Source of the DNA: Mustelus asterias
Lineage: Eukaryota
Length of the DNA: 64,000 nucleotides
NCBI RefSeq assembly: GCF_964213995.1
Contig: NC_135822.1
Location: forward strand, 21,266,001 to 21,330,000
Reading direction: 5' to 3'
In this document: positions 879 to 58,452 of the stretch, piece by piece
Numbering within the stretch: the stretch's first letter is position 1
Layout of the letters: each line of letters opens with the position of its first letter
Translations under genes and position numbers: made by a program
The notes under the pieces: generated by a model
Told to the model about the DNA's origin: nothing
Database searches by the model: none
Seen by the model: the letters and a program-made list of their open reading frames with translations, nothing else

Positions 879-3650
879 CAGGTCATAACAATATCAACAG
901 AAATTCTTACAGTCTGCTGTTATATTTCGAGCAAGATCTCTCTCGTGCACTAAACTTTCTCCCTTATTAATCTTTAAACTCAATTTTAGATCCCTCTTGG
1001 CTGCAACAATGGCCATTAACTTCAGCAAACTTGCCTCTCCAAACATGGTGATTGGGACAAACCTGAACAGAACAAGTCAGTTACCTGGAATTCAGTTCCG
1101 TAAAATGGAATGACATTAACTCTTGCTTTTTATTTCCAAATTGCAGTAATCAGGGCCAGTCAACAGTCCCCAACAGATGGTTCGTGCTTGGCCAGAGTTA
1201 TAATATTATGAAGAAATTAGAGGATAAATACAGGAAATGGAGGGAATAGCAATCTTCAAAATCATTTAATAATATACCAAGAGAGAGAGATAATGCAAAG
1301 ATAATAGGAGGTAAATGGAAAGCTGAAAAAAAGCCAAAACACAGCGATAAAAGGATGTTTCTCAAACAGATACGAAATGGACAGCAATGTTTCCTAGGTC
1401 TAGAGTTAAGCTGTCCTTATTTACTGTACACCTCTTGGGACTGGAGGGGACAGTACCTGAAATTTGCTCATTACACCCAAGAAGCAATTGTGGATTGTAA
1501 AAGACTAGAACAGCACATAGATCAACAGGTATGCAGCAGATACAGAAAAATCTAAAGTAAGAACATGGAAGAAAATATGCCTTAAATGATAAGGTCTTAT
1601 ATGGAATAAAGAAGCAGATAGACCTTGGTGTGTAGATATACACCAAGAATAAGAAAAGCACCAGCACAGATAGAAAGGGAAGCAGATCAACAGGTTTGTA
1701 TCCAGAGACATAATATTCATAAGCAGGAGGTAACATTGAGCTCGTACAAGACCTCAGTTAAGCTGCGTTTGGATTATTGTGTACAACTTTGGGAACCTCA
1801 TTATAGAAAGAATATAAAAATAATGAGCAAGATCCAAAGTAGAATCAGCAGGAATTGTGGCAGGACTGTTAGGAGCGAGAGATGATTTTAGGTAAGTTGT
1901 ATTTGATTTGATTTATTATTGTCACATGTATTAGCATACAGTGAGAAGTATTGTTTCTTGTGCACTATACAGACAAAGCATATAGTTCATAGAGAAGGAA
2001 ACGAGAGAGTACAGAATGTAGTGTTACAGTCATAGCTAGGGAAGAAGCTGTCCTTGAGTCGGTGGGCACATGGTCTCAGACTTTTGTATCCTTTTCCCGA
2101 CGGAAGAAGGTGGAAGAGAGAATGTCTGGGGAATACAATTCCCTGCTGCCATCAGACTTTTGAATGGACCTACCTTGTATTAAGTTGATCTTTTTTTAGT
2201 TGCCCTGGCAATAGGGGAAGGAAGTTCAAATGACATACCAACACACGTTTTCTCCGAAGAAGTGAAGACAGGCAGCTGAGGGAGAAGATCTCAGTGGAGT
2301 CCCGCCAGCTTCCTCCCTCTTTCTCCACCTGTTAAGCTTCGAACCCTGTTTGCCGAAGGTGGACATCCAGGGACGCCCTGCTGCACAGAGATTTCTCAAA
2401 GGAATCCAACCCAGAATGACCGCCACCCAAATAAACCAAACAACTCAGTCTTCTGCATCTTTAATTGGAAGCATCAAGCCGACCAATTCAACCTGATGCC
2501 AATTCAGTGTCCAAACTACAGACTTTGATTTTGATTTGATTGGATTTGATTTATTGTCACATGTATTAGCATGCAGTGAAAAGTATTGTTTCTTGCACTG
2601 TACAGACAATGCATACCATTCATGGAGAAGGAAAGTAGAGAGTGCAGAATGTAGTGTTACAGTCATGACTAGGGTGTAAAGAAAGTTCAACTTAATGCAA
2701 GGTAAGTCCATTCAAAAGTCTGATGGCAGCAGGGAATTGCCTTTGTTAGGAATAAGTTGCTGTCTTACGTTTAATTGCTATTTTTGTGTTTGTACCTTTA
2801 AAAGGGGGCTGCCTGAGTTTTGGTTTAACGTTAAAGAATTGCCTGAAAGTCTGGGGGGTTTGCTTGTACAGCTTGCATTTTAATTAGGTTTATGACCCTT
2901 GGTGAGAGCTGCGCTATCAAGGGGAAGTGTTTTAAGGAGGTTAAAACAAAGTAGAAACTGGACTGTTGATAAGCAACAGGGGACCTGGAGGAACTGAACA
3001 GAGGAGAGGAAACTGCAGAAAGCAGATTTCCAAAAGGAACAGGAGAAATTGCCAGAAATCAGGGAATGGGACAATCAGAAAGGCCCAGGGAGACACTTAA
3101 GTCAAGAAACAAGGTTCTGTTCAGTGAAGTTAAAGTAAGGAGCAGAGGAAATTAAAGACAGAAAGTGGGTTTGCGAGAAGCCAGAAGATCAGAGGAGACA
3201 TCCAAAGATTGTTGACTCCGTACTATAGGCCTGTGAAGATGGTGTGTTCCGTTGGTACAACGGAGTATCTGAGAGTGTGTGGAAGATGAAGCTTGAATGC
3301 ACATGGAGACCCATGGGGAAAGGAATGTCAGAAGGAAAAGCCAAAACCCTGGAGGTGGATCCTTAATGAAGGTATCCAAGTGAAAACATTGTTCGGAAGG
3401 AAATGCCAAGGCGAGCTCTTCGAGAGTGGAGATTGGAAGCCCAAGTTAAAAGACAGAGCTTCTGCGAGACCATTTCGCCCACAATGTGACAAACGTCTGG
3501 GTGGAGTTGATGAGAAATCCACACAGGTGGCATGTCACTTGGTTTCAGGATGTGGTTTGTCTGACTATAGTCTGACTATAGGTTTACAAGGACTATACCT
3601 ACTCTGAACATTAGAGTACAAGATAGTCTTTGTAACTTGTGTTATAAAAT

Positions 3651-3764
3651 AAAGTTTATTTATTAGTGTCACAAGTAGGCTTATATTAATACTTGAAGTG
3701 AAGTTGCTGTGAAAACCCGGGTCCCTGGTGCTGTGAGGCAGCAGTGCTAACCACCGTGCCACCC
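3651..3764 (-). mobile_element. Internally deleted HE1-like SINE (head joined directly to tail B)
   Basis: Head and tail present, central domain missing. Confidence 0.75.
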
Positions 3765-5181
3765 CTTACAAATCTGTATTTATCTGTAAAGATGTGTTGG
3801 GGTGAAGGAATAGTGTAATATAGTTCATCTTTTCTAGCTTAATAAATATTTATTATTTTGTTAAAAGTCCATCAGCAGACTCCCGTGACTCTGTTTAGTA
3901 GCTGCCCTCCATGTTTCTAAACAAAAAATAAAACTGAGGTTCAATCAAACCAGGTTCCACTCTGAGATCTGATTTGTCCAGTAGCAACATAAGCTGAGAT
4001 CATAACAGGGCAAATAAGCAGGAATGCTTCCAAAGGGACGATAACAAGGGGACACAAGTTTTAAGAGAAGGCATTATAATTTAATGTAATAATTAAATGG
4101 AGAGAGTAGAAACACATAGTTGGACAGAGGATGGTTATAATGTGGAATTCTTTGCCACGAGCCAATGTTGAATTAGAATCCATAAATACTTTTTCAATAG
4201 GGAATTAAAAAGTTCCTTCAAATGAAGAATATTAAAAAGTGTTCGAGTGCAAGCAGACAGCAGGGTAAACTATGATATGAGCTATTTCTGGGCTGTAACA
4301 TTCTATTTAGTTTCTGCTCTTACTTCCCCTCCCCCCCACATCCCCACCCACCACAGAAACTTGCATATAAACTGTTCCCTGCTTCATGCAATCTGTCCCA
4401 ACATCACAGGAACTCGTGAAATTTCAATTGCATTACGAAATAGGAAACTAGACCGAGGCAGCTAACAGATTCGAATTTTGCTGGCATGCTCTCCTTTCGT
4501 ACCCTCAACTTGTCATAATCAAGCTTCCTCCTGTTGTGACAGGAACGCAAGATAGTCTCTTTAGCTGAACCGAAGCTCCAAATGATTCCAATACAGACAG
4601 CTCTACTCATTCTGGAACATTCCAGAATTCTACGAGGCTCTTGACTTAAAGTCATAACTCACGATTCTGAAACATGATTGCAGACTCTTTTCTTCCAAAT
4701 TAAACCAGAGAGGAAATAATACTACATTCAGAATATTTTTATTGAATTCCAAACTTCACCACCTGCCGTGGTGGGATTCGAACCCGGGTCCTCAGAGTAT
4801 TATCTTGGGTCTCTGGGTTACTCGTCCAGTAACAATACCACTACGCCACCATCTCCCCATCTCGACCAGTTTCTGTGAATTGATAGTTCTGGGTACTCGA
4901 GCAGTAAACCAACCGCTCGTCAATTTATAAATAATTAAATCAATGCTTAGCACAGCAAGTGCAGTTAATGTTTTTAGGTAGTCTGACTGATGGAAGTTAA
5001 AAGGAGGATTTGAATCTCATAAATGGGATGAGATTCCCACAGGAGCAGCAGCTTCACGTCGGCATTTACTATCCTGAGTTTCTGGGTACAAAGTGATTAG
5101 AATACCTAAAATATGAGTTGGTGTCAGAAATAAAATGGTATGGTAAACCCCCATGAAAAATGGGACTGGCTTTTCAAATAA

Positions 5182-5284
5182 GCACTCACCTGAAGAAGGG
5201 GCTTGGGGCTCCGAAAGCTTGTGTGGCTTTTGCTACCAAATAAACCTGTTGGACTTTAACCTGGTGTTGTTAAACTTTTTACTG
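5182..5284 (+). mobile_element. 103-bp Penelope-like 3' fragment with hammerhead motif
   Basis: cac-ctgaaga-a-ggggc.ttggg.gctcc-gaaagctt-gtg followed by the family tail; flanked by 11-bp direct repeat ttttcaaataa. Confidence 0.75.
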
Positions 5285-5494
5285 TTTTCAAATAAAACCA
5301 CTATTTTATAGTGGTCTAGTTGGACCAAGGAGCAGCACAGGCTTGGAGGGCCGAAGGGCCTGTTTCCTGTGCTGTACTGTTCTTTGTTCACTGTCTCAAT
5401 ATAGTAGTCACTCCCCAACCTGAACTTCTTCACGATCAAAATTCCATCTCCAAAGCATTGCCCAGACCTGCTCCAGCCTCAGCCCATCTGATTT

Positions 5495-5788
5495 AAGTTT
5501 ATTAGTGTCACAAGTAAGGCTTACATTAACACTGCAATGAAGTTACTGTGAAAATCCCCTAGTTGCCACACTCTGGTACCTGTTCCGATAACACTGAGGG
5601 AGAATTTAGCATAGCCAATGCACCTAACCAGCACATCTTTCGGACTGAGAGGGGAAGCCGGAGCACCCAGAGGAAACCCATGCAGACACGGGGAGACTGT
5701 GCAGACTCTGCACAGACCGTGACTCAAGCCAGGAATCTACCCGGGCTCCTGGCGCTGTGAGGCAGCAGTGCTAACCACTGTGTCGCCC
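5495..5788 (-). mobile_element. tRNA-derived HE1/V-SINE-like element, tail type B
   Basis: Reverse complement of gtggttagcactgctgcctcacagcgccagg head plus central domain; tail cacagtaacttcattgcagtgttaatgtaag. Confidence 0.85.
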
Positions 5789-6738
5789 TCAGATCCTTAT
5801 TCATGACTGTCACCTCCAGACTTGACTATTGCAATCCTCTCCTATCCAGCGTGTTCTTCTCCCTAAATTTCAGTTCATCCAAAGCTCTGTTACTCGGATC
5901 ACACCTGCCCTCACTAACCTATATTAGTTCCCAATCCCAATAAAAATTCTCAATCTTGTGTTTAACGTCCCATCTCTCTGATTTTCCCCCTCCCTCCAAT
6001 TTACTCCCTCTTAAAAGTCTGCATTTTGCCAACACTTGGCTTTGACACATCCCCCCCCCCACCGGCCCCCCCCCCCAGCCCCACCCCTACCCTACCACAT
6101 ATGCCTGTGTCTCTGGTCCTCAGGGCTTCATGCTATGGGGATATTTGCCTCTCCTCCTCAGATTTCTTAAAAGTTACCTCTGACGAGTGCTTTATACACA
6201 GCTCCCCACATCACTTCCTTTGTCTCAGCATTCATTCACTTCCAATTACACCTCTGACACACAATGGGTTATTTTTCCACATTAAAAAGGGTTGGGAAAA
6301 TGCCACATTAGTTGATATTACCACATAATTTCACCAGTTGGACAGAAAAATAACGGATGTTGGCTGGGTAATCCATCACTCACCAGGTTGTCAGGAGCCA
6401 GTGCACGATGATGATCATCTGTGGGAACATGAATCCAAGTCATTCCGAAAGAACTAAAACAAATTCAACAACTTCAGAGACATAGACTGGACTAGAATCT
6501 CATTCTGTCACAACACCATCCCAAGGAGATCATACAGCATCTAAGATTGCAGCCTGGAACTCACAGTGTGCCTGTTATTTGGCTTGTAACTGGGACCTGG
6601 AGCATTTGACTAGATTCCAACTACAATTTAGAAGGAGTGAAAGGGAAAGAAATGGACAAGGGGAGAGGCAAAAAGAGAGGGGCAAGGGCAGGGGCCGTGC
6701 CCACACAGAGCGGGGGTGAGGGGGCCGTGCCCACACAG

Positions 6739-6938
6739 NNNNNNNNNNNNNNNNNNNNNNNNNNNNNNNNNNNNNNNNNNNNNNNNNNNNNNNNNNNNNN
6801 NNNNNNNNNNNNNNNNNNNNNNNNNNNNNNNNNNNNNNNNNNNNNNNNNNNNNNNNNNNNNNNNNNNNNNNNNNNNNNNNNNNNNNNNNNNNNNNNNNNN
6901 NNNNNNNNNNNNNNNNNNNNNNNNNNNNNNNNNNNNNN
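6739..6938. other. Assembly gap (200 N), preceded by a 30-bp-period GC-rich tandem repeat
   Basis: N run; ggggccgtgcccacacag occurs twice immediately before it. Confidence 0.99.
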
Positions 6939-6939
6939 A

Positions 6940-7500
6940 AACAAAATACTTTTCAACTGGTGAGATACAAAAAAAATGTTGATATTTGGAGATCCTGCAC
7001 AGAATCACAAAGAGTTAATATGCAGGTACAACAAGTAATTAGGAAATCAGCTGATATATTATTACAAAAGGATGGAGTACAGGAGTAAAAAACTCTTCCT
7101 TCACTTATATAGGGCCTTGGTGAGATCACACCTGGAGTATTGTGTAAGGTTTCCGTCTCCTTATCTAAGGGATAATATACTTGCCTTAGATAGAGTGCAG
7201 CAAAGATTAACCAGCATGATCCTTGACTTGAGGATTTCCTTAGAGTTGAAAAAAATGATTTCACTCAAAAATATATAAAATTCGCAAGGGACTTGACAGG
7301 CTGTATGCTTGCAGGAGATTGACGGAGGTGTCAAGAACTGGGGTGACTCTCAGAATAAGGGTTCAGTCATTTAGGATTGAGATGAGGAGAAACTTTTATC
7401 ACTCAAAACATGGTGAATCTTAGAAATTCACTATCACAGCAGCGTATTTCGGAGACTTTTAGATACTAAGGACAATGAGGAATCTGAGAATACTGCAGAA
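6940..7500 (+). mobile_element. Degraded CR1 ORF2 3' fragment
   Basis: LYRALVRSHLEYCV...LDRVQQR. Confidence 0.75.
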
Positions 7501-16800: not shown

Positions 16801-19800
16801 CCACCACCCCATGCTCACACTCCTCACCCATTACCTTTTTTCTTTGCTGAAGGCCACATTTCTGGCTTCATATCTTCATAATCTGTCCAATCAAAGAGCG
16901 TCATGTCAAGAGTGGGATTCACCTCAGCAACTGTTCTTGCTCCGACCTACATATGCTCAAGAAAACAACGAGCGGGTCAGAGATAGGGACAGAGGTAATG
17001 GAACAAAAAGATGGAGATGGAATAGGGAGTCATAGAAGAAAAATGGTTTGTTTGAGAGATAAAATAAGGAAGAAATAAGAGAGAGAGAGAAAACAAGGCA
17101 AATGAATGACAATGAAGTGAGTGAGCAAAGAAAATGACTGTAATTAGATTGGGAGAAATAATCATTTGCAAACTGTACAGAGACCAGACAGGTGAATAGC
17201 TAGTGAGATGAATTTGGAGATGACCCACCAGGCAACAGTTATCCAACAACTCATGACCCTTGTGCAAGGAACCTTGGGGACCTGAGAAGAATATACATCA
17301 GTTTACCTCACTGACACAGTGACTGCAAATCCCAATAATGGTAACTCGAGAATCTGAATTCAGATAAAAGCTCTGGAAATAAATGTCAGCTTTACAATTG
17401 ATGGCACATGCTGAGAATTAAAAAAACACAACTATTTATACACTATCAGCTTCTCTGATATCAAGTTGTGAATGAGCCACAATTTCCTCAGCTATCTGCA
17501 GCCTTTGTTATTTCCTTCATCTGATTTTTAAAGCTTTGGTCAGACTGCAGCAGATGGAATGCAACTGTGACAAGCTGTCTGACTGAGACATAACCTCCAA
17601 AGCCCACACCTGAGCCCCCTTAACTTCCATCTCCACAACATCTGCTTCTTTCACCTCTATCACCTGCACCTGTGACCAAAACCTTTATCTGCACTTATGT
17701 CAGCTCCAGACTTGAGTCCATTCTTGTTGGCCCCTAGAAACTCCAAAATTCAACTGCTTGCATCCCATCTTATACTGTTTGCCTACCTATCACTCTAACC
17801 CTCTTCACCTACACTGTCACCCTATTCCACAATGTATTGATTTCAAAACCCCCATCCTCATTCATAAATCCATATATAACTCCTCCTCAACCCATCATCT
17901 CCACCCTTCTGGCTATAATGAGCCATAATTTCTTCTAACTCTGCTCCCTTGTGCACCCTCCACCATCAGTGACAAACATTCTCAGTTTTCTCTTTTAGCA
18001 ATCTTTCTGTAAATACAATTTTTCTCCACCTTTAAGTCTCCATCTCGCTGCTCCTGGTTACTACAGTGTAGCTCATGACCCAGGAAATCTAGTTTACCTG
18101 TTGCCGTGTACCCCTAGATTTTGTTGCTGGTGCTTCCTCGGTTGTGATAGTGGTCAGCAATGTGCTGGTCACAATGGTGCTGGACATCGGCAGGGACATT
18201 GTGGAAAGCTCGTCTGTCTCCTTGCTTCTTGTCAGATCCTTTAAGAATGGAATTAACTCAGCACCTGGCACTTTCCCTGCAGAGAAGGGATACGTATTAA
18301 TATCGATTAATCAGCTGCAGTTAAAAAATAAATAGCTGATAGGATGTCAAACAAGGTGGGTGTTGAACAAGGTGGGTGACAAAGACCGCTGGATGACAGC
18401 ATAACAATTGAATCCACATGACAAGGCGATAGGGACCTGCTGAATGGCAGAGGCATCTGGGTGACAGGGATCTGCTGGATGACTGTATGATGTGGAGATG
18501 CCGGCGTTGGACTTGGGTAAACACAGTAAGAAGTCTCACAACACCAGGTTAAAGTCCAACAGGTTTATTTGGTAGCAAAAGCCACTAGCTTTCAGAGTGC
18601 TGCTCCTTCATCAGATATGTGGGAGTTCTGTTCACAAACAGGGCATATAAAGACACAAACTCAATTTACAAAATAATGGTTGGAATGCGAGTCTTCAAGA
18701 CTCGCATTCCAACAATTATTTTGTAAATTGAGTTTGTGTCTTTATATGCCCTGTTTGTGAACAGAACTCCCACATATCTGATGAAGGAGCAGTGCTCCGA
18801 AAGCTAGTGGCTTTTGCTACCAAATAAACCTGTTGGACTTTAACCTGGTGTTGTGAGACTTCTTACTGTGGATGACTGTATGACAGGGATGGATCTCCCT
18901 GGTTGTTCTAGAGATTTGTTTGGTGAAACAATAATAAGGTGACAGGAACCTATTGGGTGACCGGGACCTTCTGGGTGATGGTGTGATCAGGTAACAGAAA
19001 CCTTCTAGGTGACAGCATTATAAAGTGACAGGGACTTTCTGGGTGGTAGGGCACTGCTTGGTGTGGCTGAGTTGCAAATCTGCTGGATATTTTGTACCTT
19101 TGGCTTGCATTTCTTAATTGGATATTATTCTCTCTGTCACTTTGAGGCGCAATTGCTCACAGTGTGAAAGCCAAAGTAATAATGAACCAAATTAGTAAAT
19201 TTGCAACACACGCTGCCTTTATTTGACATTTCAAATGCGACAACTGGTTTAAGATTAAAAACACTGATGGGGAAAAGGTCAAGAGAGAGTTAGGATCATG
19301 CCCCCACACCCCTGACCCCAGGAAGGACTGTTGAAACCCAGTTTTATTCCCTTTGCTGATAGTATCAGCAGTAGCAATTGGCACAGGACAGTTTGCTCAC
19401 CAGCAAGGGAACAGTGCAAGATTAATGCACAACTGCTGATCAACTGCACATGTGGGTCCCTGACAATATTCTTCATCCGCTAAATTATTTAACAATGAAG
19501 TTCACTGTCACTCATGTAAATATTCTGCAAAATTCAAACATTCAGGAAATCCCCAATTCCCCAATTTCAGTTTATTACTCTCTCCTAATGCCACATCCTC
19601 TTCCTGGCCACGAATCTCCCAGAGACATTTCTAACCACATGGTCCCTTTGAACAGACACCACATCAACCAGCACTCTATGGCCCCATGAGGTCTAACTGA
19701 AACATTATCAATATGACTGCATGCTTTTCGTGGGATTTATGGTCAAATTTCACACAACTGGCTAATTCCATTTACATCTAAAATCACACAGGAATTTTGA

Positions 19801-24276: not shown

Positions 24277-25374
24277 ATGATTAATCTAAAGAAGAAACAT
24301 GCGAGGTGAACCAGAGAGTTTTATTACAATTGTTGATAAAGTATTATGTGCTGTACAACACTCAGGGGTAGATTAACCACCATTGCATTTGCATAATTAG
24401 CTTTAGTGGGTGCCAACATCAATCAAAACTCCCCCAATAGTTCAGATGGTAAAAGCTTTGCATAACTAGCCAGTTCCAGGATAGGATTTGGGACTCAGTT
24501 GCTGGACTTCTTAGATTCGGCCTATATCAGTCAAAATTCTTGTAGGAGCATTCCAATTTGTCTCAGTGTCCCTGCACTACAATAAGGGCAAGGAGGGGGA
24601 AATTCAGTTAGATTATCATGCAATGACCCCTGATGGATCCTATACCTCAACAACAGGTAGTGTCTTCAGGAAAAAAATAGGACTAAGGAAAGACATTGGC
24701 AAAATGACAAGCAAACCCTTAACCTCGGCTGTTATTGTGCTCAGTGACATGTTCTGTGATATTTACAGGCCATCCTAATGTGGCTCAGTGCAGGCTACAA
24801 TGAGTGTCACTCACACTTCCTTTTCCATTTCATTTAGTATTCCCTCTAGTCCAAAGAACAAAAATTCAAAGCTAATATAGCAAGGTGTTTTTTTGCCAAG
24901 TCCAAAATTGCACAGGGGTGTGATAAAAACTGAGTGAGAATGATAGTTGCGAACAGAAGGACGCTATTCTGCTCTCTGGTTCTGTGTCATCTCTTTCAAA
25001 GAATGGCAGTAGGTTTGGAAAGGAACAAGAGGTGGGCTTAGGTCTAAGTTAGAGTTTATTAATGCTGAGATACAACTGAAAACCTTAATAACTAAATAAC
25101 TCTTTCACACTATTAGACACAAGTGTAAAAACTAAATTTTCCTCTCTTTGTTAACATACCCATAATGCAGTGTTGGTCTTGTGCCTGCTTCCATATCCCA
25201 ATAGTGATGCACATTCCTCCACACTTCAGCTTGTCCATAAATGATTCTGGCATGACTTTCCCTTTCTTCCACTTCTCCCCCTATTGAGTCCCTCACATGG
25301 AGAAGAGGACATTTGTAGCAAGGAGAGCATTTATTACCCACCCAAAATAGTCCTTGAACACAAGGACATAGGAT

Positions 25375-25565
25375 AAAGGCAAAATACTGCGGATGCTGGA
25401 ACCTGAAACAAAAATAGAAAATGCTGGAAAATCTCAGCAGGTCTGACAGCATCTGTGGGGAGAGAATAGAGCCAACATTTCGAGTTCAGATGACCCTTTG
25501 TCATTCAGACTCAAAACGTTGGCCCTATTCTCTCCCTACAGATGCTGACAGATCTGCTAAGATTT
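25375..25565. mobile_element. Second Penelope-like family remnant with internal inverted repeat
   Basis: Arms ~25429-25485 and ~25509-25565; related fragments near 9480, 29355, 46600-46780, 52160-52262, 53695/54030 and 61380. Confidence 0.55.
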
Positions 25566-25965
25566 AACAAGGAACATAGGAAATAGGAGCAGGAGTAAGG
25601 CTTATAAATAGGCTCCTCAAGCCGACTGTACCATTCAATAAGATTATGGCTGATCTGATTTGTGGCCTTTTCCCCATTTTTCTGCCTGACCCTCATAAAC
25701 TTCAACTTCCTTCTAGATCAAAAATCTAATTCCGCCTTGAATATATTAAATGACCAAAGTGGTGCAGAGCGGCGTTCCTGAACCATGTAGTCTGTGTGGG
25801 TATAGATACATCCACAGTGCTGTTGGGGAGGGAGCTCCAGGATTTTGACCTGGTGATATATTCCCAAGTCAAGATGATGTGTGATTTAGAGGGGTACTTG
25901 CAGGTGATAATGTTCCCCTGTACTTGCTTCCCTGGTCCTTCTAGGTACTAGATGTCATAGAGTCA

Positions 25966-26082
25966 TTGGGCGCGATTTTCCAGTTGCGCTTGTCCCAAAA
26001 CTGGAAAATCCCACCCCCAAGGTCAATGGACCTTTACATGGTACAATTCCTGTGGCGGGTGGCATGGGAAAATTCCCCCCAT
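25966..26082. mobile_element. Small MITE-like element
   Basis: Imperfect terminal inverted repeats tgggcgcgattttcc and gggaaaattcccccca, plus internal gattttccagt/actggaaaatc hairpin. Confidence 0.4.
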
Positions 26083-27534
26083 AGAGTTTTACAGCATTTG
26101 TGGGTATGGAAAATGTTGTCAAAGAAGCCTTGGCATGTTGCTTGCTGCAGTGCATCTTGTAGATGGCACACTAATGCAATTACGTTTTACTGGTGGTGTA
26201 GGGAGTGAATGTTGCTTTGTCCTGAATAGTATTGCATTCCTTGAGTGTTTGTTTTTGGACTGAACAAGGCAATGGAGACTATTCCATTACACTCCTGACT
26301 CGTGTCTTGTAGATGGTGGAAATATTTTGAGGCGTCAGGAGGTGGTAGGAGTACTGCAATGAATTATTCAGTGTTCTTTATGACCACGTGAATTACAGTA
26401 GCTAGCGATCCATGGTAAGGGAGAGGAAAATCAGCCAGGAAATCTAGTCCTGAACACCATTCACGTGCATTTTCCAGCAGGAATGCCTCCTGCTGGAAAA
26501 TGCACGTGACGTGTGAAGTATGAGGACAGGAGTTTGGTTAGTGGTGATCCCGTTATGGTGAATACTGCGCCCACATTGTCTGGGCCAACAACAACTTGGT
26601 CCGTTTGTGTACCTATGAATCTGTACCTCAGCAAGAAAGAATCTCGTCGGGGCGAGAGGAATTTAGACAGAGGGGAGAAAAAGGAAAAGGTCAATGTGAC
26701 TGACGAACCATAAGACTGGACTTTGCAAAAATATATCGCACAATAAAAAAATCATACAACATTGGATATCAATATCCAGATGTGTGACTAAAAGGCGGAG
26801 GAAGTAATGTTTGGAAAGGATAATTATATTCCGCGGGAGTTATTCAGCTTTAAATCTCTATTGTTGAACGGGTATCTCCCGGGCCTCAGGGGTAATGTTA
26901 ATTATCTGCAGCTCCCCATAGAGACACTCTCTCATCTCCCATCTGCTCTAACACCAAACATCGCTTAAGCTTCCGAGATAAACTTGCAGCATCTTCCGTA
27001 AGTACCCCCAGAATTCCTGTTCTCCGGCATCACATGCATAGATTGGCCACTTGCACTGAACACCTTGGCTACAGCCCGAACCTACTAACAACTGTCAGGA
27101 ACATGTTCGGTGTCAGATTCACAAAGCATTGTTTCCAAGTCTCATTAGACATGTACATCACCTCCATTCCAATCCCCGGGGTATGGTCAAATGTTCAAAG
27201 CAGTGCTGGAGTCCAGCCACCATACAGACCGTTCAATACCCTTAGTGTCCAATACAAGACACAAAAGGAGCACCAGGGTTCAAACAGTGCGCGAACTTCT
27301 GCTCCTGTATTACTGGATATCAAATCCCAAACACTTAGCACAAGCTTGGAACATACCTTTCCCAATCTGAATAAGCTACTGCCAACCAAATGCAGAAATT
27401 TAAGAGGATCTTTTCTGCACACAATGAATGTTCGTTGCTCCCCACCTCGTGCGATACTCAACACACCTTGGAGTCCTTTTCAGTTTGACAGAAAACAATT
27501 TATACACAGATTGGGTTCCTACCCAGCGGCTCGA

Positions 27535-27612
27535 GAGAGAGAGACAGAGGTGCAGACACAGACATACACACCGACAGACAGACACATAGACTGACAGACA
27601 GACACACACACA
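27535..27612. repeat. Compound (GA)/(GACA)/(CA) microsatellite
   Basis: Directly visible. Confidence 0.8.
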
Positions 27613-27759
27613 CTTTCATTCTGACAACCACCTGCTATTGTCTCTGCTCCAGTAAACACAAACATTATGAAAATCCTAAAAGAGTCATTTACAGATGGGC
27701 TGCAGGTGAATGGACAGCCATCGCCCTGAACAACGTTTGAAAAGGGGCGTCTTTTTGGG

Positions 27760-27965
27760 ATTGAGCATCACCGCCGGTCAGGACACTTCCTACCTGTCTG
27801 TCGCCGGGGGGACGGGGCACAGAGAACGACCGCTGTCCACAATCTGATACAAGCGAAGATTCAATATCTCAGAGACTGGGACAGAGCTGAGCATCCGCGC
27901 TCCCGGGGCGCGCTCTCGACAATGATGTCAGCGACAGACGGGGGCGGGCGCAACCCGAAAGAATA
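27760..27965 (-). promoter_or_regulatory. CpG-rich region; probable DRAXIN promoter and non-coding exon 1
   Basis: Local CpG/GC enrichment, GC box ggggcgggcg near 27941, candidate minus-strand donor CAG|GTAGG at 27794. Confidence 0.55.
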
Positions 27966-28489
27966 AAGAAATGCAACCAGAGAAAGAGAAAAGCAAATAC
28001 AAAATAAAAGATTAAAAACTAGAGGCAGAGGGCCATGCCCACCTAATGAGATCTTTGCCCTAACTGAGTTGCTGAGGTGGTGAATAGAGGGAGGCGAGTG
28101 GATGTTGGGGTACATGTGAGAAGGTTTGGTCCTGCTAGCTAAACCGAGGTAATTGGACATGGATGCGAATAGGAAACTGGTTATGAATATAGGAAGCAAA
28201 AGACCATTCTCAGATTGGTGGCTGTGACAAGTGGTGTCTCCCAGGTAACCGTGTGAGAAATGTATGCTTGGCATGTTTTTAGAGGAGGATATCCAAGAGT
28301 CTAATCTGGGAAAGAGAGTGGTGGAAGGTGGAACGGGAGGATAGATTAGGTGGGGTGAGCAAAGGGTAACAGATGCAGTTTAACGAACACGGTGTGAAAA
28401 CGTAGAAATACTAACATGGGAATCAGAGACAGTCCAAATAGGAACGCATTGGGGATAGATGAGTTTAGGATTTTAAAAAAATCATCCAT

Positions 28490-28835
28490 GGAATATGAGC
28501 GTTGCTGGTTGGGCCAGCATTTATTGCCCATCCCTAATTGCCCTTGCATTTCAGAGGCATTTAAGAGCCAAAAACATTGTGGATCTGGAGTCACATGTAG
28601 GCGAGACCAGGTAAGGACGGCAGATTTCCTTCCTTAAAGGGCATTAGTGAACCAGACGGGTTTTTATAACAACCGACAATAGTATCATGGTCATCAATAG
28701 GCTTTTAATTCCAGAATTGTATGGAACTCAAACTTCACAATCTGCTATGGTGGGATTTGAACCTGGGATTCTGAAGCATTACTCTGGCTTTCTAAATCAC
28801 TAGCGCAACGACAATATCACGATGCCATTACCTCC
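28490..28835 (-). mobile_element. Another tRNA-headed SINE family copy
   Basis: ggtgggatttgaacctggg (B-box-like, minus strand) and ccagcatttattgcccatccctaattgccc; similar copies near 4735-4855, 7510-7665 and 60000-60180. Confidence 0.6.
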
Positions 28836-31800
28836 CCGGGGGCCTAGATATTCAAGTAAGGAAAAGCTAACTCGTAAATACAAAAAAAATTCGAAAAGGT
28901 TAATGAGATTTGGCTTAAATCAGGAGACATTGACTATAAAAACAAGAAAACACCACAACAACTGAATTGTGGTGCGAGACTGGGGACATTTGTTTTATAG
29001 TCTCTGAGGATGAAAAGATTGAAGGGCCATCTGAGTCAATGTTTAAAATAACGACGGGACAATTTTATGCCAGGAATGACTTTTTGCTTCAGTAAGGCAG
29101 TTCAGAATAAGGATTGACAGTCTTAAAAATTCAAGTTATGCAGTAAAAAAAATCCCAGGGAACAAACGCTTTAATTTACTGTTACAATAACTGTTACAAT
29201 ACAGAAAATACTGACCAGAAGTCACAGGTACATTTGAGATGCTTAATCAGCGACTGGGTATCTAGGGAAGTAAAGCTCTGAAAGGACCAGAAGAAACAAT
29301 GGAGATTGGATTTAAAGGATTGAACTGACGTTCATAGAATCCCTACAGTGCATAACTCTGCTTCTCTCTCCACAGATGCTGCCAGACCTGCTGCGTTTAT
29401 CGAGCATTTTCTGCTTTTATTTCATTTCTAATGTTTGTTATTGTGATACATTAAGTGAGAGAACATTGCAGGACAGAAAACTGAATACAGAAATGGAAAT
29501 GCATTAGCCATCCCTCAACCTAGGGAGAATCAGGACATGTGAGTGACATCAGATTAATCCAGTGTTTATGATCAGGGAGACACATAACAGATAATAATGA
29601 GATTTTAATTGTGTTTCTATTGACAAAAAACATTGCAGGACAGAAATAAACCAAGAGGCGCAAGTGGTCCATGCCAGTGTTTATGGTCCACACAAACCTC
29701 CTCCTCTTTCCATCTTCATTTCACCCAATCAGCATATATTCTTTCTCACTGGTGTTTTTCTAGCTGCCCTTTAACTGCATCTATCCCATTCACCTCACTG
29801 ATAAAAATTCTTACCATTCTCTGGGTAAATAAGTTTCTTCTGAATTCCCAATTGGGTTCATTAGTGGCTATCTGAAATTCATGATCCCTGGTTTTGGTCT
29901 GCCCTCCAAGTGGGTTATCTATGTTAACCCTATCAATCCCTTTCATAACCTTAAAGATTTCTAGGAACACAGGAAAACACTATTTTCTGTTTTGTATCCA
30001 TCCTGCAAATCATGGAACAAAATATCATGAAGAAGGTCATTCAACCCATTGTGTTGGCTCTTTGATAGAGCTACTCCCCCCCCACCCTACTCCAGCTGGG
30101 TATTTTTTCCCCTCAAGTATTTCTCCAATTCCTTTTGAATCTGCTTCCATCATCCTTTCCGATCACAATAACTTGCTGTGTAAAAACAGTTTCCTCATGG
30201 CAGCTCTGTTTTTTTTGCCAATCATTTTAAATTTATGAATCTGCAAATAATAGTCTTGCTGACTGGTCAGGTAAAAGTTGAAAATAGAAATGAAGGAGAG
30301 TTTTAACTGATTTAGTACACAGAGTGGGTGTAGTGCAATAGGTTAATAGAAGTCATGCTAATGAGTGATGTAAGCCATGATATATCAGTGACATCAGCAG
30401 TTATGTGCTAGACTCTTGAGAGTGGTATCTACGCTGCAACCTCTTATATATAGTGTTGATAAACCAACTGAAAGCGAGTTCTAGAGTAAAACTACAATTT
30501 ATCTAGATTGAATAGGTTACACATACCAGAAGCCAGCAACCACGCCACAGGTATATGAAACATGATAGCAGTGGTGGTAATACCAATTGAATCAAACATT
30601 GGTGTCATTGATTGAATCATGGCAGAAAAAAGTGCAGAAAGATCTAGTAGAGTGAAGAATTTATGAACCTAACCAAGAAGGAGGCAAAATGGTGGAGGAT
30701 AATGATGTCTGTACCCAGTGGCAATCGCTGCTCCTACTTCACCCATTTGATAGTCTCAATGGCACGCAAAGAGGTCAAAACTGGGAGTAGCACTTCTGAA
30801 ATCGAGCAGCATCGAGCCTTTGTGCTAAAGAGCAGAAGCGCCAGGTCAGTTTGTTTCTTTATGCCGTGGGTCCACTGATGATGTCCTCCTGAGGCAGGGG
30901 GTGGAAGAATCCTCTTTAGACTTCAACGTCATTCTCAAAGCCTTCAACATGTGTTTTAGCCCAAAGTGAAATCTAGTGATAAGATTATTCATGCTTTAAC
31001 CAAAGGTCCCTATGACCACAGGAATCAGTTGAATTATTTCTTACTGACCTGTATTACCCAGCGAGCTCTTGTGGATACAGGGCTTTGAAACTTGAGCTCA
31101 TCTGCGGCCACATTGTCATTGGGGTCCATGATGAGAAGCTTTCTGATTTTTATTTTACAGACCAGGGACAACTGCACCTTGGATCAAGCAGTTCAATATG
31201 CAAGGCAGGCCAAAATCAGGCTATAATTCTGCGCTATACCAAGGCTCTAGATCACTCTATTAACTGGGTAGGCCTGGGGCAGTGGCTCCGCCCACTCAAA
31301 AGCCTACCAAATCATGCGAAAGGGTAGGAAATCCCACAGCAGCCCTTTTTTTATGCTGTGATGCAAAGAAACAACACAGATGCCAAGATTGCCCAGCAGG
31401 GGCAATGTGGTAAGACTAGATAGTTCAAGCTTCTGGAAGTCCAACAACTTTAATTGAGGAAGAAGACAGAAAATATTTATGAGACACATTCCATCCAACA
31501 AATTGGATATAAGACAGAGATAAAACTACAGGATTTCTAGGGGAAGTACATTACCCTAATCAAGGCTCTTGGTCTGTTACTGTGCAAGTTAAAGGCTTTG
31601 ACACTAATTTTAAAATTAACACTGGAGCTGGCATTAACATGCTAGCAGATCATCTGGACTGGCTTCAAGCAATACCCCTTCATCAATCAAAATAGCAAAT
31701 TGCAAAGTCTAGGTAGCACAGGCCTTCCAATGAAAAGCACCTAATTGCATGTCTTTGTTACAAAGGGCAACAAATTGTTGATTTTCTTTGTTGTTCACAA

Positions 31801-32085
31801 ACCATGCACATCCTTATTGAGTGGAGATGTTAGCATCTTACTGAAATTCCTGAAAAAAAGTGGATGATGACCACCATTTACACAACCCGATGCATTTCAT
31901 GGAACAAACATTGAGGTTATGTAGAACCAGTGGACTCTCAGCCTATAGCAGCTGAGGAGGTTTATTCAGTAAGCAGTGAATTACTTTCATAGAACATAGA
32001 ACATAGAACATTACAGCGCAGAACAGGCCCTTCGGCCCACGATGTTGCACCGACCAGTTAAAAAAAAAAACTGTGACCCTCCAAC

Positions 32086-34905
32086 CTAAACCAATTTCTT
32101 TTCGTCCATGAACCTATCTACGGATCTCTTAAACGCCCCCAAACTAGGCGCATTTACTACTGATGCTGGCAGGGCATTCCAATCCCTCACCACCCTCTGG
32201 GTAAAGAACCTACCCCTGACATCGGTTCTATAACTACCCCCCCTCAATTTAAAGCCATGCCCCCTCGTGCTGGATTTCTCCATCAGAGGAAAAAGGCTAT
32301 CACTATCCACCCTATCTAAACCTCTAATCATCTTATATGTTTCAATAAGATCCCCTCTTAGCCGCCGCCTTTCCAGCGAAAACAATCCCAAATCCCTCAG
32401 CCTCTCCTCATAGGATCTCCCCTCCATACCAGGCAACATCCTGGTAAACCTCCTCTGCACCCTCTCCAAAGCCTCCACATCCTTCCTGTAATGTGGGGAC
32501 CAGAACTGCACACAGTACTCCAAGTGCGGCCGCACCAGAGTTGTGTACAGTTGCAACATAACGCTACGACTCCTAAATTCAATCCCCCTACCAATAAACG
32601 CCAAGACACCATATGCCTTCTTAACAACCTTATCTACTTGATTCCCAACTTTCAGGGATCTATGCACACATACACCTAGATCCCTCTGCTCCTCCACACT
32701 ATTCAAAGTCCTCCCGTTAGCCCTATACTCAACACAACTGTTATTCCTACCAAAGTGAATTACCTCACACTTCTCCGCATTAAACTCCATCCGCCACCTC
32801 TCGGCCCAACTTTGCAACCTGTCTAAGTCTTCCTGCAGACTACGACACCCTTCCTCACTGTCTACCACACCACCGACTTTGGTGTCATCAGCAAATTTGC
32901 TAATCCACCCAACTATACCCTCATCCAGATCATTAATAAATATTACAAACAGCAGTGGCCCCAAAACAGATCCCTGAGGTACACCACTTGTAACCGCACT
33001 CCATGATGAATATTTACTATCAACCACCACCCTCTGTTTCCTATCCGCTAGCCAATTCCTGATCCAATTTCCTAGATCACCCCCAATCCCATACATCTGC
33101 ATTTTCTGCAGAAGCCTACCATGGTGAACCTTATCAAACGCCTTACTAAAATCCATATATACCACGTCCACTGCCTTGCCCCCATCCACCTCCTTGGTCA
33201 CTTTCTCAAAAAACTCAATAAGGTTAGTAAGGCACGACCTACCTGCCACAAAACCATGCTGACTATCACCTATCAATTCATTACTCTCCAAATAACTATA
33301 AATCCTATCCCTTATAATTTTTTCCAACATCTTGCCGACAACAGAAGTGAGACTCACCGGTCTATAATTCCCGGGGAAGTCTCTGTTCCCCTTCTTAAAC
33401 AATGGGACAACATTCGCTAACCTCCAATCTTCTGGTACTATACCAGAGGCCAACGACGACCTGAAGATCAGAGCCAGAGGCGCTGCAATCACTTCTCTTG
33501 CCTCCCAGAGAATCCTTGGATAAATCCCATCCGGACCAGGGGATTTATCTATTTTCAGACCCTCCAGAATATCCTGCACATCCTCCTTATCAACTGTAAT
33601 ACTGTCTATTCTACTCCCTTGCAACCCAGTGTCCTCCTCAGCTATATTCATGTCCCCTTGCGTGAACACCGAAGAGAAATATTGGTTCAATGCTTCACCA
33701 ATCTCCTCCGGTTCCACACATAACTTCCCTCTGCCATCTATAACTGGCCCTAAACTTGCCCTAACCAACCTTCTGTTCTTGACATACCTATAGAACGCCT
33801 TAGGATTCTCTTTAACCCTATCCGCCAAAGTCTTCTCATGTCCCCTTTTAGCCCTTCTAAGCTCGCTCTTCAACTCCCTCTTAGCCAATCTAAAGCTTTC
33901 TAGTGCACTACCCGAGTGCTCACGTCTCATCCGAACATAAGCCTCCTTTTTCTTTTTAACCAACAAAGAAACTTTTTTGGTGCACCACGGTTCCCTAGCC
34001 CTACCAATTCCTCCTTGCCTGACAGGGACATACCTATCACAGACTCGCAGTAGCTGCTCCTTGAAAAAACTCCACATGTCGGACGTTCCCAGTCCCTGTA
34101 ATCTCCTAGTCCAACCTATGTTTCCTAATTCTCTCCTAATAGCCTCATAATTACCCTTCCCCCAGCTAAAACCACTGGCCCGAGGTTCATGCCTATCCCT
34201 TTCCATCACTAAGGTGAACGTAACCGAATTGTGGTCACTATCACCAAAATGCACACCAACTTCCAAGTCTAGCACCTGGTCTGGCTCATTTCCCAGCACC
34301 AGATCCAATATAGCCTCACCTCTAGTTGGCCTGTCTACATACTGAGTCAAAAAACCTTCCTGCACGCTTTGAACAAAAACTGACCCCTCTAACGAGCTAG
34401 AGCTATAACAATTCCAGTCAATATTAGTCAAGTTAAAATCCCCCATAACAATTGCCCTATTACTTTCACTCCTAAGCAGGATTGACTCCGCAATCCTTTC
34501 CTCAACCTCTCTGGAACTTTTAGGAGGTCTATAAAAGACTCCCAACAGGGTGACCTCTCCTCTCCTATTTCTAATCTCCGCCCATACTACCTCAACAGAT
34601 AAGTCCTCATCAAACCTCCTCTCTGACACTGTGATACAATCTCTGACCAATAATGCTACCCCTCCCCCTCTTCTACCTCCTTCCCTACTTCGACTAAAAC
34701 ATTTGAACCCCGGGACCTGCAGCATCCATTCCTGCCCCTGCTCTATCCATGTCTCTGAAATAGCCACAACATCGAAGTCCCAGGTACTGATCCACGCTGC
34801 AAGTTCACCCACTTTATTGCGAATACTCCTGGCATTGAAGTATACACATTTCAAACCCTGCTCCACCCCACCTCTGCAATGCCGTGCATTGCAGTCCCCA
34901 TCCAT
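32086..34905 (-). CDS. CR1 LINE ORF2: APE endonuclease plus reverse transcriptase, 939 aa, uninterrupted
   Basis: Endonuclease motifs NARS, SETW, YRPP, GDFN, SDH; RT motifs KSPGPDG, YRPVSL, DFSKAFD, GVPQGSVLGP, KFADD; CR1 C-terminus RPHLEYCVQFWSP. Confidence 0.95.
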   Translation of the reverse strand: MDGDCNARHCRGGVEQGLKCVYFNARSIRNKVGELAAWISTWDFDVVAISETWIEQGQEWMLQVPGFKCFSRSREGGRRGGGVALLVRDCITVSERRFDEDLSVEVVWAEIRNRRGEVTLLGVFYRPPKSSREVEERIAESILLRSESNRAIVMGDFNLTNIDWNCYSSSSLEGSVFVQSVQEGFLTQYVDRPTRGEAILDLVLGNEPDQVLDLEVGVHFGDSDHNSVTFTLVMERDRHEPRASGFSWGKGNYEAIRRELGNIGWTRRLQGLGTSDMWSFFKEQLLRVCDRYVPVRQGGIGRAREPWCTKKVSLLVKKKKEAYVRMRREHSGSALESFRLAKRELKSELRRAKRGHEKTLADRVKENPKAFYRYVKNRRLVRASLGPVIDGRGKLCVEPEEIGEALNQYFSSVFTQGDMNIAEEDTGLQGSRIDSITVDKEDVQDILEGLKIDKSPGPDGIYPRILWEAREVIAAPLALIFRSSLASGIVPEDWRLANVVPLFKKGNRDFPGNYRPVSLTSVVGKMLEKIIRDRIYSYLESNELIGDSQHGFVAGRSCLTNLIEFFEKVTKEVDGGKAVDVVYMDFSKAFDKVHHGRLLQKMQMYGIGGDLGNWIRNWLADRKQRVVVDSKYSSWSAVTSGVPQGSVLGPLLFVIFINDLDEGIVGWISKFADDTKVGGVVDSEEGCRSLQEDLDRLQSWAERWRMEFNAEKCEVIHFGRNNSCVEYRANGRTLNSVEEQRDLGVCVHRSLKVGNQVDKVVKKAYGVLAFIGRGIEFRSRSVMLQLYTTLVRPHLEYCVQFWSPHYRKDVEALERVQRRFTRMLPGMEGRSYEERLRDLGLFSLERRRLRGDLIETYKMIRGLDRVDSDSLFPLMEKSSTRGHGFKLRGGSYRTDVRGRFFTQRVVRDWNALPASVVNAPSLGAFKRSVDRFMDEKKLV

Positions 34906-34955
34906 GCATCCCTCACTTTCAGCCCCACTACTCAGGATCCCTCCCCCCCCCCGAA

Positions 34956-35381
34956 TCAGTTTAAACCTCCCTGCATGGCCTTAGCAAATTTACCCCCCAG
35001 GATATTGGTCCCCTTCTGATTAAGGTGTAGACCATCCTTCTCATAGAGGTCACACCTTCCCCAGTACGAGCCCCAATTGCTTAAGTACCTGAACCCCTCC
35101 CTCCTGCACCATCCCCTCAGCCATGAATTCAAACCTTCCCTCTCCCTATTCCTCTCTAAACTATCCCGTGGTACAGGCAAGAGTCCAGAGATAACCACTC
35201 TGTCAGTCTTGGCCTTTAGTTTCCACCCCAACTCCATAAATCCCTGCCTAATATCCCCTTCCCCTATCCTCCCTATGTCGTGTGTCCCCACATGTACAAT
35301 AACTTGTGGTTTATCTCCCTCCCCCCTAAGAGTCCTGAATACACTGTCAGACACATCCCGGACCCCAGCCCCTGGTAGGCA
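34956..35381 (-). pseudogene. C-terminal part of CR1 ORF1 (SGNH-esterase-like domain), 5'-truncated
   Basis: CLPGAGV, VIVHVGTHDIG and DGLHLN blocks typical of CR1 ORF1 esterases; upstream codons of the track ORF are flanking DNA. Confidence 0.85.
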
Positions 35382-37339
35382 ATTCTTTCCATTACAGAAA
35401 CACCATCCACCAGACCCTGGGCAGATATTGAGATTGTGGATCTCTTGGTTCTTTATAGAAGGTGGCAGAGGTGGCAGATACAGGAGCCACTGCGATGGAC
35501 AGTGACTATGTGCAAGGAAGCCTTTCGGACCTGAGTTGGTAATGAAGGAAGAGGTCATTGTAGCATTCAATAATCTGCTGGAGGGTGGTGTCCTAGAAGT
35601 TGGTATCTTATTCAAATCAACAGCCAAATCATGTGAAGTCACTTTATTTTGAGAAGTCAGCTGTGTTTCTTGTGACTGAGCCACATTCAGATCTTTATTC
35701 CACTGAACTTACTAAAGCAATGTCTAGTCTATCATTGGTTAACCATGAGTCTTCCAGGTAGAACCCCATGCTTGATTCCATGCTTGAGTTCAAAGTATCA
35801 GAGTGCCAAAGAGTTGGTAGCACCTGTTTCTGAAAGTAAATTGATGCCCATACTTCAACCCCAGCTAAACATCTTCTCCCACTAGAGCTATCTTTCACAG
35901 CAGAGGCTGAGGCAGAATCTTCAGAGCTTCTACAACTTAATGATCCTGTACAAGAAATCTATCTTCATATCAGCCCAGAGATTCATTCTATTGTAGACAA
36001 TGGTGTTATCTTAGCTTCTTATCCTCAATAATTCTTCCGATTCTCCATGGTGGAGCAGCATCACGCAGAGAAAAGTGTAGCAATGTTACCCCTGCCTACA
36101 GAAAGAAACAAATCTTTCAAAAGTGACATCATGAAGCCATCTTTTTTTCATTTGCTGCAAGCCTTTGGAAGTTTGTCATTCTTCTTCTCTTTGTCCAGAT
36201 TTGATAGAATCTCAGATCTTCAATATCTTTTTCGTCTTCAATTCAGCAGTGATCATTTGTCTTCTCAGGTCTTTCCCCAGAGTGCTTTGAGGGAGCTGGA
36301 GATTCCTGACAAAGTCCTCATTTTTTAAGTTCAAGAGAGTTCAAGTATTGATGATCTTCAGTCTTCTCTCTTGGATTAGTCTTTCTTTGAAAAGGATCTG
36401 TGGTCCTCCAAATTCAGCAGTCCTAAGATCTACACTCTGATTACCAGCACTCCTGTGAAGTTGCTGTCTTATTTCACTCAAGAGAAAGAGGAATGCCTGC
36501 ACGTCTCTTCCCAAAGAGTCAAGTACCTGTGGGTGACTGAATCCCTCATATCAGTGACATGGGGTGGGGGGAGGGGGCTGAAGAGCAGAAGTAAGAGTTG
36601 GATAGAATCTGTAGCAGTGAAAGGAAGTTACAGGAATACAATGTAAATAATTAAAACATAATTTCGTGTTAAGGTTTTAGAAAACTTGAAGGTAGATGTT
36701 GTGCAATGGGTTAATTGAATAGTTATTTATGCTCATGCATGATGTAGGCTATGATGTAAGTAACATCAGCAGCCATATGCTAGACTCTCTCTAAAGGTTG
36801 GAATACCCCTATCTTGTATATGGTGCTAATAAACTGGTTTAAAGCAAGTTCCAGAGTAAGATCATATTCAGTCTAGATAGGGTACATCATGCATACCAGA
36901 AACCAACAATCACACCACAAATATATGAAAAAATGAATGATTTTCAAAGAAAGTCAGGTAACTTTTTGAACCACAGGTAATTGATAAACGGGGAGAGAGG
37001 CAAGGTGGGAGAGAGGGTAGTATTATCCTTTTACATTGCGCTAGCAACCAGCCAACGTGTTGGATCAAATGGCTTCCTGTTCTATGCTGATGAATGCCGC
37101 TGATACTGTGTGTTGTCCAGATTGGTGCAGTTCCTCTGGAAAGTTGCTGGATGTGTGATATTAAGTCTGAACAAATAAGTTCCATCTGGCAAAAGCTTAT
37201 GTTTCTTCCCTGCTTCATCCCTCTGGATAGCTGTCTGCAGTTTGGGGTGAAGTTAAAGAGTGGAAAATGAGGTGAACTGTGAGACTGAAGGATGTGAGGT
37301 GGGGTATAATGGTGGAGGGAGTAAGGCAAATGTGAGAGG

Positions 37340-38640: not shown

Positions 38641-38739
38641 AAGGAAGATGTAAGGATGGAAGAGGTGAAGCTGGAGGGATGAAAGGGAGAGTGTGAGGAT
38701 GGGTAGAGGGGAGGTTGTAAAGCTGGAAGAGGTGAAACG

Positions 38740-53181: not shown

Positions 53182-58452
<5,271 letters not shown>

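What the first reader, a model, noticed from the sequence alone, without database searches (positions are those of the whole stretch)
18477..18883. 349-bp near-perfect palindrome of a hammerhead-bearing Penelope-like repeat, about 250 nt upstream of a DRAXIN exon
Seen: two 174-bp arms (18522-18695 and 18697-18870) separated by one base, with about four mismatches, mostly CpG decay. The insertion is flanked by a 14-bp direct repeat (ggatgactgtatga). Each arm carries a CUGAUGA-stem II-GAAA hammerhead core, so both strands encode one. Both arms share a variant (cacatatctg) absent from the other two family copies here, implying one template or arm-to-arm conversion. Established: Penelope-like elements often insert with inverted pseudo-LTRs and carry minimal hammerheads. 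Inference: the DRAXIN pre-mRNA would fold into a ~170-bp dsRNA near the 18276 acceptor (possible ADAR/Dicer substrate or splicing modulator), and the DNA could extrude a cruciform.
Basis: partly seen in the sequence, partly recalled or inferred. Interest (0 to 1): 0.7.

Follow-up and report, generated by a model that had tools for sequence, protein, structure and literature searches.

The report
Mirror-image Penelope stub in DRAXIN intron
This 349-base palindrome in an intron of the DRAXIN gene is real, but it is one of many thousands of similar stubs left by a very abundant Penelope-type jumping gene, likely made when both cut DNA strands copied the same RNA, and nothing seen here suggests that it regulates DRAXIN.

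Summary
The palindrome, 14-bp duplication, two hammerhead cores and DRAXIN context are confirmed. It is a 5'-truncated insertion of a Neptune/Nematis-type Penelope-like element (RT and GIY-YIG-type ORF in longer copies): a tail-bearing arm, an inverted tail-less arm and a TSD, a published layout. It is the family's default form here: 42,717 exact tail matches; 69 of 100 sampled copies have an inverted arm; 9 of 100 match or exceed this one (up to 3.8 kb). The 'private' variant sits in both arms of another insertion, so it came from a rare source element; conversion is not needed. The hammerhead on the DRAXIN strand has lost its conserved stem-II pair and is buried in the hairpin. The left junction is shared with two other organisms. 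No RNA data could test editing or splicing. Family-level clues favour two reverse transcriptions of one RNA from both nicked strands: a symmetric TG-N16/17-CA target (44 of 54), arms of one haplotype (781:14), matched 5' ends (37 of 61 within 20 nt). The scan has already reported this pattern many times, in this and other shark genomes. Interest low.

The parts
18477..18490 (.). left copy of the 14-bp target-site duplication; its last 4 nt also fit the element's 3' end
   Evidence: sequence
18491..18521 (-). 31-nt 3' 'tail', present on this arm only
   Evidence: 42,717 exact matches of a 30-nt tail motif genome-wide
18522..18695 (-). tail-bearing arm: 5'-truncated 3' end (pLTR region) of the element, sense with DRAXIN
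18586..18614 (-). minimal hammerhead core of the DRAXIN-sense arm; G10.1-C11.1 lost (G-U) plus a C-A mismatch in stem II; stem I weakened
   Evidence: features from PMC4209133
18696..18696 (.). 1-nt centre joining the two 5'-truncated ends, both about 203 nt from the reference 3' end
   Evidence: only 2 loci genome-wide have this centre with a 0-3 nt spacer
18697..18870 (+). inverted, tail-less arm; last G shared with the right TSD
18778..18806 (+). minimal hammerhead core of the inverted arm; stem II intact, stem I weakened; antisense to DRAXIN
18870..18883 (.). right copy of the 14-bp TSD
18472..18474 (+). left half (CTG) of the symmetric target CTG-N16-CAG
18884..18886 (+). right half (CAG) of the symmetric target
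18098..18276 (-). DRAXIN coding exon (179 nt) downstream of the insertion; context, not part of the element

Best explanation
The palindrome is a 5'-truncated insertion of an abundant Penelope-like retrotransposon, likely built on the spot when a paired enzyme nicked both strands of a symmetric target and each nick likely primed a copy of the same RNA, and it is likely inert for DRAXIN. Shown: element identity, layout (TSD, tail, arm, centre, inverted tail-less arm, TSD), abundance, symmetric target, same-haplotype arms, correlated 5' ends. Inferred: one nick primes at the distal RT start (arm with tail), the other at the proximal start about 31 nt inside (arm without tail); both copies stop near the same broken 5' end of one RNA; host end joining fuses them head to head. 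Identity as an ordinary PLE stub is about 0.95; the two-copies-of-one-RNA route about 0.55.
For: Longer copies carry RT (PF00078, E 2e-10) and a GIY-YIG-type domain (PF01541, E 1.7e-4, just under cut-off). 67 of 100 position-sampled tail copies have an adjacent inverted arm, 69 with two loci fetched longer; none of the 69 has a second tail next to it; 56 of 67 have a TSD, mode 12-13 nt; the inverted arm stops 26-35 nt before the tail motif's end in 55 of 67. Both 3' ends face the TSDs, as target priming predicts. Target TG-N16/17-CA in 44 of 54 (shuffle mean 2.4, max 11); the window site is CTG-N16-CAG. Arms agree at subfamily-diagnostic sites 781 to 14, 317 discordant expected if random. 5' ends within 20 nt in 37 of 61 (permutation mean 11.3, max 22); the tail-less arm is the longer in 16, the tail-bearing in 8; 20 of 61 centres hold inserts over 5 nt. 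In vitro a lizard PLE cuts and extends both strands, has two RT starts that bound the tail and is predicted to be a dimer (PMC11167929).
Against: Matched 5' ends, same haplotype and the window's own 1-nt spacer are also what fold-back copying predicts; asymmetry could be later centre deletion, and 16:8 is not significant (p 0.15). The lizard element is a Poseidon, this one has the Neptune/Nematis linker. Arm divergence (4 of 174) is somewhat low for an insertion shared with organism C: expected 5.7-11.9 depending on how flank changes are split, P 0.33-0.008, so some homogenisation is not excluded. The sample of 100 is the first 7.2 Mb of one contig and needs an exact tail motif. Inertness is an inference from abundance and anatomy, not from RNA data.
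Confidence: 0.6

Rival explanations
1. Same element, but one cDNA folds back and copies itself (self-priming); later centre deletions and repair give the asymmetric copies.
For: Proposed in PMC3846280 (Discussion). Predicts same haplotype (781:14) and matched ends (16 of 61 within 3 nt). The window copy is symmetric to the base.
Against: The tail-less arm reaches further 5' than the tail-bearing one by over 20 nt in 16 of 61, including young pairs with 0-2 differences; equal ends are sometimes separated by 41-165 nt of filler (L060, L117, L070); it does not explain a fixed tail-less end or the symmetric target.
Confidence: 0.25
2. Two-strand priming, but on two separate RNA molecules carried by the enzyme pair.
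For: Predicted dimer and two-strand extension in vitro; a few pairs disagree at diagnostic sites (L081 3, L061 2).
Against: Independent RNAs should give independent truncation points and, with several subfamilies active, frequent haplotype mismatch; observed rho 0.72 and 14 of 795 discordant.
Confidence: 0.08
3. The insertion has been co-opted: its ~170-bp hairpin is edited or diced, or tunes inclusion of DRAXIN exon 18276-18098.
For: Hairpin predicted at -317 kcal/mol, z -40; left junction retained in two other organisms; arm divergence slightly low. Long intronic dsRNA is a general ADAR substrate (recalled).
Against: Thousands of equivalent hairpins; hairpin is self-contained and starts 246 nt from the exon, outside the acceptor region; skipping a 179-nt exon would shift the frame; arms decay at CpGs like neutral DNA. 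Incidental editing would not be function.
Confidence: 0.05
4. Assembly or library fold-back artefact.
For: None positive; long perfect palindromes can be artefacts (general knowledge).
Against: Arms differ by strand-specific CpG decay, the tail is on one side only, flanks are not mirrored, a TSD and the family's target motif bracket it; the layout recurs with TSDs in 56 of 67.
Confidence: 0.01

Closest known systems
Insertions of EN+ Penelope-like elements with inverted pLTR, one-sided 30-40-bp tail and TSD (Pen2a_Av of Adineta vaga, PMC3846280, passages and Discussion; general scheme in PMC8557442, passages)
   Same: Head-to-head inverted 5'-truncated copy, 31-nt tail on one end only, 9-14-bp TSD, palindromic junction.
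   Different: Here the direct copy is itself a ~205-nt stub, so the whole insert is a near-perfect palindrome; this is the majority form in a family of over 40,000 copies. I did not find length-matched arms or a symmetric target in the passages read.
Neptune/Nematis clades of C-terminal EN+ PLEs (PMC8557442, passages)
   Same: RT, then a CX4CxxC linker, then a GIY-YIG-type domain with two Cys between the GIY and YIG positions and downstream His.
   Different: No tree was built, so Neptune versus Nematis is not decided; the N-terminus was not recovered.
Poseidon of Anolis carolinensis, PAc (PMC11167929, parts 1-2 of 4 read)
   Same: Tail between two ends, hammerhead near the end, two-strand cutting and extension fits the layout.
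   Different: PAc lacks the linker, prefers AT-rich ATT sites; this family uses TG-N16/17-CA. The text read does not explain inverted copies.
Minimal hammerheads of metazoan PLEs (PMC4209133, parts 1-2 of 4 read)
   Same: Extra nucleotide between 9 and 10.1, palindromic AGCU at 15.1-16.1, short stem I; opposite-strand pairs 100-700 bp apart are mentioned there.
   Different: Both window copies have a weakened stem I and the DRAXIN-sense one has lost G10.1-C11.1; they face opposite ways, so no tandem partner for the dimeric fold lies in the insert.

Membership tests
EN+ Penelope-like element | Single ORF with RT | tested here: met
   PF00078 E 2.1e-10 in L142, a longer copy contiguous with the same end
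EN+ Penelope-like element | C-terminal GIY-YIG endonuclease with CCHH | tested here: met
   PF01541 E 1.7e-4, 22.3 bits against cut-off 22.6; VVY-x-C-x3-C-x-YIG and later His seen directly
EN+ Penelope-like element | Inverted 5'-truncated copy with a one-sided 30-40-bp tail and TSD | tested here: met
   window; 67 of 100 copies, 56 of 67 with TSD
EN+ Penelope-like element | RT groups with PLE RTs in a tree | not tested
   no tree built
EN+ Penelope-like element | Full-length copy in partial tandem with direct pLTRs | not tested
   longest copy read was about 1.9 kb per arm
Neptune/Nematis clade | CX2-5CxxC linker between RT and EN | tested here: met
   C-x4-C-x2-C in L040, L142, L143, L144; definition
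Minimal PLE hammerhead | Catalytic boxes, extra nt after A9, palindromic 15.1-16.1 | tested here: met
   both arms (features). No Rfam hit at gathering score
Minimal PLE hammerhead | G10.1-C11.1 and a stable stem II | tested here: not met
   not met for the DRAXIN-sense arm, met for the other arm
Minimal PLE hammerhead | Self-cleavage | not testable with these tools
   needs an in vitro or in vivo cleavage assay
MITE / fold-back DNA element moving as a unit | Copies share a fixed centre and length | tested here: not met
   centres and lengths differ copy to copy; only 2 loci share this centre

The most novel reading that the evidence does not exclude
This family integrates by symmetric double target-primed reverse transcription: a dimer reads TG-N16/17-CA, nicks both strands and copies one RNA molecule twice from two fixed starts, so it writes DNA palindromes as its normal product (about 30,000 in this genome, up to 3.8 kb), some ending where the hammerhead cut the RNA in vivo.
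Probability: 0.4. Interest if true: 0.55.

Novelty: new member of a known kind. Interest (0 to 1): 0.2.

Why it matters
The locus itself matters little: it is one ordinary stub. The family statistics bear on an open question, how Penelope-like elements make their inverted structures, which PMC8557442 calls undefined. A symmetric target, same-template arms and matched 5' ends give testable predictions for the existing in vitro system. A genome carrying tens of thousands of long, nearly spacer-less palindromes is also a natural test of how palindromes and intronic dsRNA are tolerated. The scan has noted most of this before.

Tried and rejected
No RNA holder was listed for the flank, so editing, small RNAs and exon inclusion could not be looked at. 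Laying contigs on the 83-nt centre listed no exact piece with 31 nt on both sides, with 6,007 pieces not shown: no verdict. The same-sample flank contig was not listed (a filter drops records). Gene conversion as the source of the shared variant: rejected; rare variants shared by both arms occur in 7 of 62 pairs, 23 columns (15 are two insertions in one locus) against 126 unshared. A hotspot centre at AAGACT seen was an effect of searching with the palindrome; it is not seen in the position sample. A pile-up of 5' ends at the predicted hammerhead cut is weak here: 21 of 42 ends in the middle of three windows (p 0.019, paired ends not independent; 16 against 8 and 9 loci), and a pile as large lies 31-40 nt upstream. 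Six pairs were dropped from the length test because a subfamily-specific break at -341 mis-set their ends (67 to 61). Paper searches for twin priming, head-to-head pLTRs, two-strand TPRT and target preference and for shark PLEs or shark editing gave only listings and no paper stating the two-copies model or this target; the library lacks most subscription papers and no supplements were read (those of PMC11167929 show insertion ends and may bear on this).

Full report
Observation. The two 174-nt arms, the 1-nt spacer and four mismatches are as described; three mismatches are CpG decay. The 14-bp repeat occurs exactly twice in the window, at 18477 and 18870. Between the left repeat and the left arm lies a 31-nt stretch (18491-18521) with no partner on the right: the tail. 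The host gene is DRAXIN on the minus strand: five of six exon translations hit PF15550, and the 18276-18098 exon sits in frame between them. The genome is 3.68 Gb; a run labelled 'shark metagenome' matches the flank with 6 differences in 317 nt.

What the repeat is. Copies that extend further 5' run into an ORF end. Longer copies give an RT (PF00078, E 2e-10) followed by a C-x4-C-x2-C linker and a GIY-YIG-type domain with the CCHH pattern (PF01541, E 1.7e-4, just under cut-off). By the definitions in PMC8557442 (passages) that is a Neptune/Nematis-type Penelope-like element; no tree was built. The layout (inverted 5'-truncated copy, one-sided 30-40-bp tail, TSD) is published (PMC3846280, passages and Discussion; PMC8557442, passages), as are opposite-strand hammerhead pairs 100-700 bp apart (PMC4209133, parts 1-2 of 4).

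How common. A 30-nt tail motif has 42,717 exact matches. I took the first 100 by position on contig C1. An adjacent inverted arm was found in 67 and in two more after fetching longer stretches; 56 of the 67 have a TSD of 7 nt or more, mostly 11-14. Eight have stems of 150 bp or more, no spacer and at least 95% identity; a ninth is a 3.8-kb palindrome at 97.8%. Scaled up, that is about 29,000 inverted copies (25,000-33,000) and about 3,800 (1,800-7,000) that match or exceed the window's; the sample is one 7.2-Mb region. A direct count of head-to-head exact 21-mers 240-270 nt apart, the window's size class, gives 960 loci, not all of them perfect palindromes. Centres differ from copy to copy and only one other locus has nearly this centre, so the palindrome does not move as a unit.

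The shared variant. The 18-mer carrying it occurs four times in the genome, against 4,858, 150 and 12 for the parent and the two single variants. Two hits are the window's arms. One other is a separate palindrome with its own TSD whose second arm also carries the variant with one further change. It therefore came from a rare source element. Across 62 pairs the arms agree at diagnostic non-CpG sites 781 times and disagree 14 times (317 expected at random), while rare variants are mostly unshared, so one template is the rule and conversion is not pervasive. Median arm-to-arm divergence is 2.2% against 5.9% to other copies (58 pairs).

Mechanism. Both 3' ends of the element face the TSDs and the truncated 5' ends meet in the middle, as expected if both target strands primed reverse transcription. 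The inverted arm stops 26-35 nt short of the tail motif's end in 55 of 67 and never carries an adjacent second tail. Following a lead from earlier scan notes I rebuilt the target sites: TG-N16/17-CA surrounds 44 of 54 (shuffle mean 2.4, max 11), and the window site is CTG-N16-CAG. The two 5' ends are correlated: rho 0.72, within 20 nt in 37 of 61 (permutation mean 11.3, max 22), also for arms over 150 nt (10 of 22 against 2.3); six pairs were dropped for mis-set ends. Centres show overlap in 24, blunt joins in 7, 1-5 nt in 10, 6-80 nt in 17 and more in 3 of 61; small overlaps may be alignment over-run. In vitro the lizard PLE cuts and extends both strands from two RT starts that bound the tail and is predicted to be a dimer (PMC11167929, parts 1-2 of 4). 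The most economical reading is two copies of one RNA, joined by end repair. Fold-back self-priming explains matched ends and shared haplotype equally well but not a longer tail-less arm (16 of 61, against 8 the other way, p 0.15) unless centres were revised later. This step is inferred, about 0.55 against 0.25.

Function at DRAXIN. The pre-mRNA is predicted to fold into the full hairpin (-317 kcal/mol). Only the left arm's hammerhead is on the DRAXIN strand; it has lost G10.1-C11.1, does not form stem II when folded alone, is transcribed after its complementary arm, and belongs to a class reported to need a dimer or protein to cut. The hairpin starts 246 nt from the exon and leaves the acceptor region free. 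Contigs of two other organisms (15 differences in 613 nt and 33 in 615) run through the left TSD into the tail, so the insertion predates their split. Four arm differences are on the low side for that age (expected 5.7-11.9, P 0.33-0.008); mild homogenisation is not excluded. Nothing positive points to co-option; editing and splicing remain untested.

Verdict. A real, ordinary, probably inert stub of a known kind. The scan's notes hold 15 findings with all my search words in at least 6 genomes and 176 that fit 'Penelope palindrome' in this genome; none was returned for this sequence. Interest 0.2, carried by the family-level mechanism.

Noticed in passing
window 18765-18795: The commonest family alleles read CAG|GTAAGT or CAG|GTGAGT on the antisense strand of hammerhead stem I, a consensus splice donor; the window's variant reads CAG|ATATGT and lacks it. 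An intronic palindrome of the common type offers such a donor on the host strand whichever way it lands.
   Followed up: partly
window 53735-54025: Second copy with the same layout but asymmetric: tail plus about 28 nt of arm, then a tail-less arm of about 230 nt; older (85% to the palindrome), TSD unclear.
   Followed up: partly
window 5190-5288: Solo tail-less stub of the same family starting at the hammerhead core.
   Followed up: no
L142:3958-7742 (G000:C1): 3.8-kb palindrome at 97.8% reaching into the RT; L073, L113, L124 and L133 are 1.1-1.35-kb palindromes at 99% or more.
   Followed up: partly
L042 and L098; L083 and L097; L063 and L064; L061: Independent insertions into equivalent sites of other repeats (same or nearly same flanks); L061 sits in the element's own ORF.
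   Followed up: no
position sample L042-L141: 5' ends pile up 31-40 nt upstream of the predicted hammerhead cut (20 of 167 ends), at the start of stem I, as much as at the cut itself (17).
   Followed up: partly
window 32086-35708 (-): Open 964-aa frame with endonuclease- and RT-like motifs and an upstream 250-aa frame, looks like a young CR1/L2-type LINE (label recalled).
   Followed up: no
window 25429-25565: 66-nt inverted repeat, 83%, 5-nt spacer, from a different repeat family.
   Followed up: no
window 37339-38734: Minisatellite of alternating 40/42/44-nt units.
   Followed up: no
window 6739-6938: 200-nt run of N.
   Followed up: no
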